DNA of 64,000 nt from a virus (IMGVR_UViG_3300015177_000008:32001-96000); one strand, 5' to 3'; shown: positions 63,512 through 64,000, counted from the first letter of the stretch. Notes: generated by a model from the letters alone, not told the origin. Numbers and translations: made by a program.

Positions 63512-64000
63512 ATGCCTTTTTTAATTTTCATTATTATACTACTGCTCACCGTGATTTTTTGGGATTGGGTTGTTTTAAATGGTCAAATTGTTGGAACATT
63601 GGCTACAGCATTTGCTTTTATAGCAACAGCATGGAATGCCTACGAAGCGAGAAAAAGTGCAAAAGCAGCTTTTTCAGCCCTTCAATTAACAACAGAATCA
63701 TTGTTCGAAATGCGAAAGAGTGCATTTAAACAATGGTTTGATTCCTTATTAAATCAACATGATGAGCTATGTCTTCTTGCAAAACAAATTATCGATAAAC
63801 GCAAAATTAATTTAAACAGCGATGAGTTACATAGACTATATTACCCATTGGTAAAACAGCATGAGGTAATACAGTATGTGAAGCATATTATTAATATTTT
63901 TGAGTATGTGGATAGTTCATTTTATATTGATGGGGAATGTCTAAAGGAAAAAAGAGCGTATGTGTCACAATTAATTTTCAAAATCCCACCTCAGATGAAG
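63512..64000 (+). CDS. Partial CDS (N-terminal 163 codons, runs off window end); membrane-anchored hypothetical protein in AT-rich DNA
   Basis: ATG 63512 then open frame to window end; N-terminal hydrophobic helix; not in ORF track because no stop in window. Confidence 0.45.
   Translation, partial: MPFLIFIIILLLTVIFWDWVVLNGQIVGTLATAFAFIATAWNAYEARKSAKAAFSALQLTTESLFEMRKSAFKQWFDSLLNQHDELCLLAKQIIDKRKINLNSDELHRLYYPLVKQHEVIQYVKHIINIFEYVDSSFYIDGECLKEKRAYVSQLIFKIPPQMK

What the first reader, a model, noticed from the sequence alone, without database searches (positions are those of the whole stretch)
63512..64000. AT-rich open frame running off the window end
A frame of at least 163 codons stays open in about 30 percent GC DNA, where stops are frequent by chance, and begins with a hydrophobic helix. 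It was missed by the ORF track because it has no stop in the window. Its composition suggests recently acquired cargo such as an abortive-infection or exclusion gene.
Basis: seen in the sequence. Interest (0 to 1): 0.35.

Follow-up and report, generated by a model that had tools for sequence, protein, structure and literature searches.

The report
Truncated AbiC-like membrane defence gene
The open frame is the first 163 codons of a real 420-codon gene on an E. coli phage-plasmid; it encodes a membrane-anchored, very divergent relative of the AbiC/AbiP abortive-infection proteins, sits in a swap-prone slot, and is a likely but untested anti-phage gene that databases label 'hypothetical'.

Summary
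An ATG at 63512 opens a frame that runs to base 64000 (163 codons, 33% GC against 45% for the window; 0 of 20,000 shuffles stay open).

The window is a ~110 kb SSU5-like E. coli phage-plasmid, 100% identical over 63350-64000 to NZ_CP117002.1. There the ORF continues to 420 aa and is annotated 'hypothetical protein'.

The protein has two N-terminal hydrophobic helices, a long stalk helix and a helical cytoplasmic body. It has no Pfam, NCBIfam or solved-structure match of its own. A profile search links it to a small family in which 36 of 47 members carry Pfam putAbiC (PF16872). Profile-profile comparison gives 99.9% probability (E=1.7e-35, 359 columns).

The gene plus its upstream intergenic region form a ~1.44 kb AT-rich cassette between the grxA start codon and a conserved terminator hairpin. 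Related plasmids hold unrelated genes there, or alleles only 31-53% identical. dN/dS is 0.2-0.35. The N-terminal half is conserved and the C-terminal half is variable.

Best reading: a single-gene AbiC/P-type abortive-infection or exclusion protein. This is inferred, not shown. 'Recently acquired' is not supported, because the family holds this slot across six genera.

The parts
63512..64000 (+). First 163 of 420 codons of the AbiC-like gene (WP_021512311.1 in NZ_CP117002.1). The gene would end at window-equivalent 64774.
   Evidence: dN/dS is 0.20-0.35 among four intact alleles.
63515..63562 (+). Transmembrane helix 1 (aa 2-17, PFLIFIIILLLTVIFW).
   Evidence: Hydropathy. Helix 2-15 in the AF2 model with pLDDT 84-88.
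63584..63670 (+). Second hydrophobic Ala/Thr-rich helix (aa 25-41) running into the family's most conserved motif, ATAWNAYEARKSAKAA (aa 38-53). Its positive charges place the rest of the protein in the cytoplasm.
   Evidence: Invariant columns T32 A35 F36 T39 A40 W41 A43 A46 S49 A53 in 15 homologues. Region conservation. Charge count.
63581..63799 (+). One continuous helix of 73 residues (aa 24-96): TM2 plus a cytoplasmic stalk that carries the F72 / LL79-80 / QH82-83 motif.
   Evidence: AF2 model m4df315352bb0, pLDDT 90.1. Conservation.
63845..64000 (+). N-terminal part (aa 112-163) of the region that corresponds to Pfam putAbiC (about aa 112-195). The window end cuts it.
   Evidence: PF16872 matches at the homologous position in relatives. 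hhalign alignment.
63338..63511 (.). Divergent intergenic region between grxA and the AbiC-like gene. It travels with the cassette. It contains a minus-strand sigma70-like promoter (63441..63414) and no plus-strand promoter that passes the scan.
   Evidence: My reading of the sequence gives a weak plus-strand candidate: TTGGTT, 17 nt spacer, TATAGT, ending about 20 nt before the ATG.
63381..63400 (.). Palindrome ATAGGTATGTGCATACTTAT, an operator-like motif (ATAGGTA-N6-TACCTAT) 44 nt upstream of the grxA ATG. It is conserved in otherwise diverged cassettes.
   Evidence: 7 sites in the window against 0.10 expected.
63092..63337 (-). grxA (glutaredoxin), the conserved left flank. Homology between plasmids breaks at its start codon and ribosome-binding site, about 63339-63349.

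Best explanation
Bases 63512-64000 encode the N-terminal 163 residues of a 420-aa inner-membrane-anchored protein carried by an SSU5-like E. coli phage-plasmid. It is a deeply divergent member of the putAbiC (Pfam PF16872) / lactococcal AbiC-AbiP superfamily.

**Architecture (shown).**
- A two-helix N-terminal membrane hairpin.
- A 73-residue helix that continues from TM2 into the cytoplasm.
- A conserved helical putAbiC-type core, about aa 112-199.
- A poorly conserved C-terminal half, aa 200-420.

**Locus (shown).** The gene and its upstream intergenic region form a self-contained AT-rich cassette. The cassette lies between the grxA start codon and a conserved bidirectional terminator hairpin, in a slot where related plasmids carry unrelated genes or very different alleles.

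**Function (inferred).** In the lysogenic, plasmid state the protein is made at a low level and sits in the membrane. Its variable C-terminal half recognises a component of a superinfecting phage; for AbiP the trigger is a major tail protein. The signal passes through the stalk to the conserved N-terminal half, which stops phage development. It could do this by disturbing the membrane through the conserved Ala/Thr-rich TM2. Alternatively it could block late gene expression, as reported for AbiC and AbiP. Either way it would protect the host population and the resident phage-plasmid.
For: **Real gene.** The frame is open, with 0 of 20,000 shuffles staying open. The full-length ORF is intact in 39 of 5,426 complete E. 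coli genomes; one further genome has a partial match. dN/dS is 0.20-0.35.

**Homology.**
- A profile of 5 close homologues finds 68 representatives among 1.84 billion proteins.
- 36 of 47 full-length representatives hit PF16872, best E=1.4e-11. All ten checked individually match at the same position.
- 7 of 47 hit the PADLOC AbiC model and 4 of 47 hit AbiP.
- hhalign of the window clade against putAbiC-positive members gives 99.9% probability, E=1.7e-35, over 359 columns.
- A Pantoea protein annotated 'putative phage abortive infection protein' hits the E. coli gene by tblastn at 2e-9.

**Architecture.** There are two hydrophobic helices, as described for AbiC (PMC13064643). The AF2 model has pLDDT 90.1.

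**Cassette and hotspot.** Sharp homology breakpoints mark the cassette. Alternative occupants include a protein with a nuclease domain shared with defence effectors (PDC-M68A 3.9e-25, SduA 9e-17).

**Alleles and neighbours.**
- Alleles at 31-53% identity sit in the same slot inside flanks that are about 92-99% identical.
- The N-terminal half is conserved and the C-terminal half is variable.
- Chromosomal or other relatives lie next to a TIR/SEFIR protein (Siccibacter) and an AAA_21/AAA_15 ATPase pair (Lelliottia).
Against: - The protein itself reaches no Pfam, NCBIfam or PADLOC AbiC threshold.
- Its clade has replaced many polar residues that are consensus in the wider family: R155, S156, N160, D161, N169, E195 and H196.
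- The biochemical mechanism of AbiC/AbiP is itself unknown (PMC13064643).
- An AbiC-like protein 38% identical to AbiC gave no protection against the phages tested (PMC11381338).
- The scan found no plus-strand promoter.
- The neighbour evidence rests on only three loci outside phage-plasmids.
- There is no expression or phenotype data.
Confidence: 0.6

Rival explanations
1. It is a superinfection-exclusion protein that acts at the envelope. It would block DNA entry or receptor function without killing the cell, as prophage Sie or Imm-type membrane proteins do, rather than causing an abortive infection.
For: It is membrane-anchored. It is prophage- or plasmid-borne and arranged like a moron, with its own intergenic region and a terminator. 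Allelic diversity at a fixed locus would fit competition between related phage-plasmids.
Against: By the positive-inside rule, about 380 of 420 residues are cytoplasmic. The only detectable homology is to the AbiC/P superfamily, whose studied members act after DNA entry (PMC13064643). PHROGs gives only a family of unknown function, phrog_18168.
Confidence: 0.15
2. It serves the phage-plasmid itself and is not a defence gene. Possible roles are a membrane tether or regulator of replication or partition, a lysis-timing factor, or an addiction (post-segregational killing) module.
For: The family keeps one fixed position next to the replication and nucleotide-metabolism module across the SSU5 supergroup. 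The intergenic region holds an operator-like motif shared with backbone operons. TA toxins (YafO) populate the neighbouring slot.
Against: It is dispensable. Only 138 PLSDB plasmids carry any family member, against 707 records with a match to the integrase/grxA flank. Unrelated genes replace it. No partner antitoxin ORF lies in the cassette. Relatives occur outside phage-plasmids. The palindrome is placed to serve grxA rather than this gene.
Confidence: 0.15
3. It is a chance open frame or a decaying pseudogene in AT-rich foreign DNA.
For: No curated family matches the protein itself. It is annotated 'hypothetical' everywhere.
Against: 0 of 20,000 shuffles stay open. Four diverged copies are intact over 420 codons, with dN/dS 0.2-0.35. 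The AF2 model is confident, pLDDT 90.1. There are 68 homologous representatives.
Confidence: 0.01

Closest known systems
Lactococcus lactis AbiC (Prf; Durmaz et al. 1992), grouped with AbiP as 'AbiC/P' in PMC13064643
   Same: It is a single-gene system with two N-terminal transmembrane helices followed by a helical extra-membrane domain that has no recognisable enzymatic fold. It is carried on a mobile element and is AT-rich. Relatives of the window protein match the PADLOC AbiC model (7 of 47, best 1.3e-6) and Pfam putAbiC (36 of 47).
   Different: The host is Gram-negative and the carrier is a phage-plasmid. The protein is 420 aa. It does not reach the AbiC or putAbiC model thresholds on its own. 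Several consensus polar residues are replaced. Its phenotype is unknown, whereas AbiC lowers production of the major capsid protein.
Lactococcus lactis AbiP (Domingues et al. 2004, 2008, as summarised in PMC13064643)
   Same: It is a membrane-anchored single protein whose anchor is needed for function. It is activated by a phage structural protein. 4 of 47 relatives hit the PADLOC AbiP model.
   Different: AbiP has one TM helix and a demonstrated sequence-independent RNA/ssDNA-binding domain. Nothing here shows nucleic-acid binding.
Enterobacterial 'putative phage abortive infection protein' (PF16872-positive), e.g. Pantoea agglomerans WP_161569778.1 (P0030)
   Same: Length, N-terminal membrane segment and domain order are the same. 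Homology runs over the full length: hhalign 99.9% over 359 columns, tblastn 2e-9.
   Different: Identity is about 24%. The Pantoea type keeps the consensus GH..S.YMR.LYHLLK / RS.I.NDV / FFEH motifs and passes Pfam at 45 bits. The window clade does not.
Defence hotspots of temperate phages and satellites, such as the P2/P4 hotspots (PMC13586616; abstract only)
   Same: It is a fixed position, bounded by conserved backbone genes, where unrelated cargo cassettes are swapped. Only some of that cargo is recognisably defence-related.
   Different: Here the boundaries are the grxA start codon and a terminator hairpin in an SSU5-like phage-plasmid. One protein family recurs in the slot as very divergent alleles.

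Membership tests
Pfam PF16872 (putAbiC) | The protein scores at or above the curated gathering cut-off (22 bits) against the PF16872 model. | tested here: not met
   No PF16872 hit at E<=1 for the 420-aa protein or its 96%-identical representative. Relatives score as follows: P0007 (31% identical) 18.0 bits, P0008 22.0 bits, P0030 45.1 bits.
Pfam PF16872 (putAbiC) | Statistically supported homology to PF16872-positive proteins across the domain. | tested here: met
   hmmsearch with the clade profile finds PF16872-positive proteins at E from 3e-119 down to about 1e-4. hhalign of A1 against A7 gives 99.9%, E=1.7e-35, 359 columns. tblastn gives 2e-9.
Pfam PF16872 (putAbiC) | The family's consensus polar residues in the domain are retained (H116, S120, R124, H128, R155, S156, N160, D161, N169, E195, H196; numbering of the window protein). 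| tested here: not met
   The window protein has Q, I, K, N, I, F, P, Q, F, N and D at these columns. Only Y122, F193, F194, H83, Q82 and hydrophobic positions are kept.
Lactococcal AbiC/P group | N-terminal transmembrane helix or helices (two in AbiC, one in AbiP) followed by a helical extra-membrane domain. | tested here: met
   Hydropathy shows aa 2-17 and 25-41. The AF2 model has helices 2-15, 17-22 and 24-96 and is almost entirely alpha-helical. The AbiC/P architecture is taken from PMC13064643.
Lactococcal AbiC/P group | Detectable sequence similarity to AbiC or AbiP themselves. | tested here: inconclusive
   The PADLOC AbiC model hits 7 of 47 family representatives (best 1.3e-6) and AbiP hits 4 of 47 (1.1e-4), but neither hits the window protein.
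Lactococcal AbiC/P group | The extra-membrane domain superimposes on the AbiC/AbiP models. | not testable with these tools
   The AlphaFold-database library was not available. PDB and BFVD hold no relative.
Lactococcal AbiC/P group | A single gene is sufficient, and the gene is autonomous. | tested here: inconclusive
   The cassette holds one ORF of 100 aa or more, plus its own intergenic region and a terminator. Relatives are solitary in several contexts. Sufficiency for a phenotype was not tested.
Lactococcal AbiC/P group | Anti-phage phenotype: lower plaquing efficiency and burst size, and a block after DNA entry. | not testable with these tools
   This needs phage challenge experiments.
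Septu PtuB (weak PADLOC hit) | An HNH-nuclease PtuB protein paired with a PtuA ATPase. | tested here: not met
   There is only a 16.9-bit, E=9e-4 match of aa 30-128 (the helical stalk) to the C-terminal part of one PtuB model. The representative P0001 has no hit. No ATPase gene lies in the cassette.
Prophage superinfection-exclusion membrane proteins | Sequence relationship to known Sie or Imm-type families. | tested here: not met
   PHROGs returns only phrog_18168, 'unknown function'. tblastn against 50,697 phage records finds nothing.

The most novel reading that the evidence does not exclude
The slot between grxA and the tRNA cluster of SSU5-supergroup phage-plasmids is a fixed, hypervariable immunity locus built on one scaffold. 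A conserved membrane hairpin, stalk and putAbiC core act as the effector; the Ala/Thr-rich TM2 could oligomerise into a pore. A fast-diversifying C-terminal half acts as the sensor. Under this reading the allele decides which competing phages are excluded, possibly including rival SSU5-like phage-plasmids. This would give a tractable E. coli model for the mechanism of the AbiC/P family, which has been unresolved since 1992.
Probability: 0.25. Interest if true: 0.55.

Novelty: new member of a known kind. Interest (0 to 1): 0.33.

Why it matters
AbiC was described in 1992 and AbiP in 2004. According to a 2026 review (PMC13064643), neither has a known biochemical mechanism or an informative fold match.

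- **A hidden enterobacterial branch.** Pfam, NCBIfam and PADLOC all miss this protein. AbiC is not among the systems named in the passages I read from a DefenseFinder survey of SSU5-like phage-plasmids (bioRxiv 10.1101/2025.09.12.675607).
- **Spread.** The family is present on 138 PLSDB plasmids, including plasmids from clinical E. coli, Klebsiella, Enterobacter and Salmonella isolates.
- **Experimental value.** If active, it gives an E. coli-based system with natural allelic series: a conserved N-terminal half and a variable C-terminal half. Such series suit domain swaps, trigger mapping and membrane assays.
- **Locus value.** The work also maps a precisely bounded cargo slot in a clinically common phage-plasmid group.

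On present evidence it remains a homology-based prediction of an ordinary kind of cargo.

Tried and rejected
- **Weak single-sequence hits, judged spurious.** These were PADLOC PtuB1 (E=9e-4, stalk helix only), Pfam ATP-synt_I (E=0.34), Ac76, BA_2335-like and DUF1796. All fall below their cut-offs, on low-complexity helical or TM segments, and are inconsistent between alleles.
- **PDB sequence search with the profile.** Nothing below E=0.098.
- **First AF2 run with a 5-sequence alignment.** pLDDT was 60.8 and the model was not used. It was replaced by the 47-sequence run.
- **Phage records.** megablast and tblastn found no match, so the gene is not in sequenced SSU5-type virions in that collection.
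- **The search for related loci with the 47-sequence alignment.** It failed because no stretch was conserved enough. A rerun with 15 sequences gave only 3 loci in 185,579 species genomes.
- **Look-up of P0078.** The context was not on record.
- **Literature.**
  - No paper mentions PF16872.
  - The 'Abi_C' (PF14355, HEPN/AbiJ) papers concern a different domain and were set aside.
  - The first literature search on 'AbiC' was swamped by unrelated acronyms.
- **'Recently acquired' rejected.**
- **Palindrome at 63381.** I considered it as the operator of this gene. Its other sites all precede minus-strand backbone genes, so it more probably serves grxA.

Full report
**1. Observation**

The sequence shows an ATG at 63512, three codons after an in-frame TGA at 63500. 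The frame then stays open to the last base of the window, 163 codons.
- The stretch is 32.9% GC against 45.4% for the window. GC falls from codon position 1 to 3 (0.43 / 0.29 / 0.27).
- None of 20,000 shuffles of the stretch stays open, and the other five frames are littered with stops.
- The translation starts MPFLIFIIILLLTVIFW, a strongly hydrophobic helix.
- The ORF lister omits ORFs that run off the source, which explains why it was missed.

**2. Where the window comes from, and the full gene**

The last 651 bases have no near match among 50,697 phage records. They match 37 E. coli/E. albertii plasmids of about 105-120 kb, 36 of them typed non-mobilizable. One match, NZ_CP117002.1, is 100% identical.
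- The annotated neighbourhood on the minus strand is dnaE, an AAA ATPase, CobT, a tyrosine recombinase and grxA. Beyond the gene lie three tRNA genes, a DNA ligase, a primase and a DnaB-like helicase.
- This is the replication and nucleotide-metabolism module of an SSU5/pHCM2-type phage-plasmid. The literature describes this group (PMC7969092; bioRxiv 10.1101/2025.09.12.675607).
- In the identical record the frame continues to 420 codons and is annotated 'hypothetical protein' (WP_021512311.1).
- The ~1.44 kb cassette DNA matches 40 of 5,426 complete E. coli genomes, 39 of them over at least 80% of its length. It is always on a plasmid, never on a chromosome, and always 'hypothetical'.

**3. 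Is it a functional gene?**

Four alleles differing by up to 13% at the protein level are all intact over 420 codons. Pairwise dN/dS is 0.20-0.35. M1 and P2 are invariant in 15 homologues down to 26% identity. It is a real gene under purifying selection.

**4. What the protein is**

On its own the protein matches no model.
- Pfam gives nothing at E<=1 apart from a sub-threshold ATP-synt_I hit at E=0.34.
- NCBIfam gives nothing.
- PADLOC gives only a weak PtuB fragment, which I reject.
- PHROGs gives phrog_18168, 'unknown function', at E=4.5e-215.

The word-indexed search of 5.8 billion proteins found only seven clusters.

A profile of five of these, scored against 1.84 billion representatives, found 68 proteins at E<=0.001. 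This is a small family. Of 47 full-length representatives:
- 36 match Pfam PF16872 'putAbiC, putative phage abortive infection protein' (best 1.4e-11).
- The ten checked individually all match at the same place, about residues 130-230. This corresponds to residues ~112-195 of the window protein.
- 7 match the PADLOC AbiC model and 4 match AbiP.

Further links:
- Profile-profile comparison of the window clade alone against 25 family representatives outside the close clade (all seven checked individually are putAbiC-positive) gives 99.9% probability, E=1.7e-35, over 359 aligned columns, residues 16-380.
- A Pantoea protein that RefSeq names 'putative phage abortive infection protein' hits the E. 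coli gene directly by tblastn at 2e-9.

Homology to the putAbiC superfamily over nearly the whole length is therefore established. Membership by the curated Pfam threshold is not. The reason is visible in the alignment: the window clade has replaced many polar residues that are consensus in the wider family.

**5. Anatomy**

- With the 47-sequence alignment AlphaFold2 gives a confident model, pLDDT 90.1 and pTM 0.77. The 5-sequence run was poor.
- The model has helix 2-15 (TM1), a short turn, and then a single helix from residue 24 to 96. The first ~18 residues of that helix are hydrophobic and Ala/Thr-rich (TM2). The rest is a cytoplasmic stalk.
- After the stalk come a helical core and a C-terminal half that is mostly helical with three short strands.
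- The segment after TM2 (NAYEARKSAKAA) is positively charged. The positive-inside rule therefore puts about 380 residues in the cytoplasm (inference).
- TM2 and the motif that follows are the most conserved part of the close family: T32, A35, F36, T39, A40, W41, A43, A46, S49 and A53 are invariant in 15 sequences.
- Mean column identity in the 15-sequence alignment is 0.60 for TM2, 0.51 for the stalk and 0.40 for the putAbiC region. It is only 0.19-0.20 for residues 200-420.
- Among close alleles, substitutions also pile up in the C-terminal half.
- A TM helix more conserved than a simple anchor needs to be suggests a role in the membrane. A variable C-terminal half suggests a specificity domain. 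Both points are inferences.

**6. The locus is a cargo slot**

Comparison with related plasmids shows flanks about 88-99% identical. Homology breaks sharply at the grxA start codon and ribosome-binding site on the left (window ~63339-63349). On the right it breaks at a conserved hairpin, AAAAAAGGGGCCGAAGCCCCTTT, 13-18 bp after the stop codon, outside the window.

Between these points the ~1.44 kb cassette (intergenic region plus gene) is 32% GC. Other plasmids with the same flanks carry different cargo there:
- a Gp49/Sf6-gp66 family gene;
- a 529-aa protein with no family match;
- a 262-aa protein whose N-terminal domain matches defence nucleases (PDC-M68A 3.9e-25, Shedu SduA 9e-17), together with a 184-aa protein.

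About 186 PLSDB plasmids match the integrase-grxA flank at >=95% identity, but only 37 have this allele.

**7. One family, one slot, many alleles**

- Proteins only 53% (P0005) and 31% (P0007, P0015) identical to the window protein occupy the same position and orientation in related backbones.
- A Klebsiella plasmid shows the same arrangement, after a phoH-gp49-grxA operon.
- tblastn finds the family on 138 PLSDB plasmids, mostly 100-116 kb and non-mobilizable: Escherichia 71, Klebsiella 37, Enterobacter 18, Salmonella 6, Pantoea 3, Citrobacter 2.
- The identity distribution is bimodal: 37 at >=80% and 101 at <60%.
- All alleles are 31-37% GC, 8.5-19 points below their surroundings, in every host.
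- This argues against recent acquisition. It argues for an old resident of the slot that diversifies quickly or is exchanged between phage-plasmids.
- Outside this plasmid group the scan of 185,579 species genomes found only three loci. One lies next to a TIR/SEFIR protein, one next to an AAA_21/AAA_15 ATPase pair, and one between a DNA methylase and umuC. This is weak guilt-by-association support for defence.

**8. How it most likely works**

Shown:
- a real, constrained gene;
- a membrane-hairpin, stalk and helical-body architecture;
- homology to the putAbiC superfamily;
- a self-contained cassette in a swap-prone slot;
- a conserved N-terminal half and a variable C-terminal half.

From the literature:
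- AbiC has two TM helices and lowers major-capsid-protein production without affecting DNA replication.
- AbiP has one TM helix, needs it for function, and binds RNA and ssDNA non-specifically.
- AbiP prevents the switch-off of early transcripts, and a phage major tail protein triggers its toxicity.

Inferred: the phage-plasmid expresses this protein in the carrier state. Its C-terminal half senses a component of an incoming phage. The conserved N-terminal half then halts phage development at the membrane or at late gene expression. I put 0.6 on an anti-phage role of this kind.

The rivals, and the caveats that limit the inference:
- I put 0.15 on envelope-level exclusion and 0.15 on a function for the phage-plasmid itself.
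- Homology does not guarantee activity: an AbiC-like protein 38% identical to AbiC showed no activity against the phages tested.
- The scan detected no plus-strand promoter. By eye there is only a weak candidate, TTGGTT-17-TATAGT. That would fit low expression but is unverified.

**9. Comparison with what is known, and novelty**

This is a new, unannotated and strongly divergent branch of a known kind of single-gene membrane-anchored Abi protein. Standard annotation tools do not recognise it. AbiC does not appear among the defence systems named in the passages I read from a DefenseFinder survey of SSU5-type phage-plasmids. It is neither a new kind of system nor surprising cargo for a phage-plasmid. 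The fixed-slot allelic diversity and the conserved TM2 motif are the modestly interesting parts.

**10. Verdict**

Novelty is 'new member of a known kind' and interest is 0.33.

Noticed in passing
window 23889-23908, 26018-26037, 31772-31791, 36349-36368, 41033-41052, 44540-44559, 63381-63400: The palindromic motif ATAGGTA-N6-TACCTAT (up to 2 mismatches) occurs 7 times, against 0.10 expected. For six of the sites I mapped the position onto the annotation of the related record NZ_CP117002.1, assuming the window is collinear with it throughout. Those six lie in intergenic DNA ahead of minus-strand backbone genes: nrdA (46 nt from its ATG), thyA, dam, a metallophosphoesterase/AAA operon, a BRCT gene and grxA. 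The seventh site (44540) was not placed. The motif also recurs in related SSU5-like loci but not in non-SSU5 loci. It looks like the operator or promoter element of a phage-plasmid regulator.
   Followed up: partly
window 62980-63012: A unique 33-bp near-perfect palindrome, AATGATTCCATACATAGTAGGTATGGAATCATT, with 13-bp arms around a 7-bp centre. It lies 99 bp upstream of the tyrosine-recombinase gene, whose start is at 62881. In related plasmids a YafO-toxin cassette is inserted immediately to its right (L001 7664 / L005 4408). It could be the recombinase's target or dimer-resolution site, or just a hairpin.
   Followed up: partly
window ~63013-63090 (between the palindrome and the grxA terminator); L005 4450-5478, L010 3541-4578: This is a second variable slot. 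Some related phage-plasmids carry a YafO-family toxin gene plus a 202-205-aa ORF between the recombinase gene and grxA.
   Followed up: no
L004 6798-7586 (same slot as the finding, in plasmid NZ_CP116406.1): An alternative occupant of the slot is a 262-aa protein. Its N-terminal ~125 residues match nuclease domains of defence effectors (PADLOC PDC-M68A 3.9e-25, Shedu SduA 9e-17, CBASS endonuclease effectors). Pfam gives no match. It is followed by a 184-aa ORF that also accompanies the 53%-identical allele in L007.
   Followed up: partly
L001 9438-9463 (would be window 64787-64812, beyond the window end): A conserved hairpin, AAAAAAGGGGCCGAAGCCCCTTT, with an A-run on one side and a T-run on the other, forms the right boundary of the cargo slot in all six plasmids compared. 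It is probably a bidirectional terminator. Three tRNA genes (Ser-tga, Thr-tgt, Asn-gtt) follow on the minus strand.
   Followed up: partly
window ~29630-30110 and ~25500-26006 (mapped from NZ_CP117002.1 95845-96321 and 91713-92219): The nucleotide-metabolism module is annotated with a trimethoprim-resistant dihydrofolate reductase (DfrA51) next to thymidylate synthase. The DNA adenine methyltransferase gene is annotated as frameshifted.
   Followed up: no
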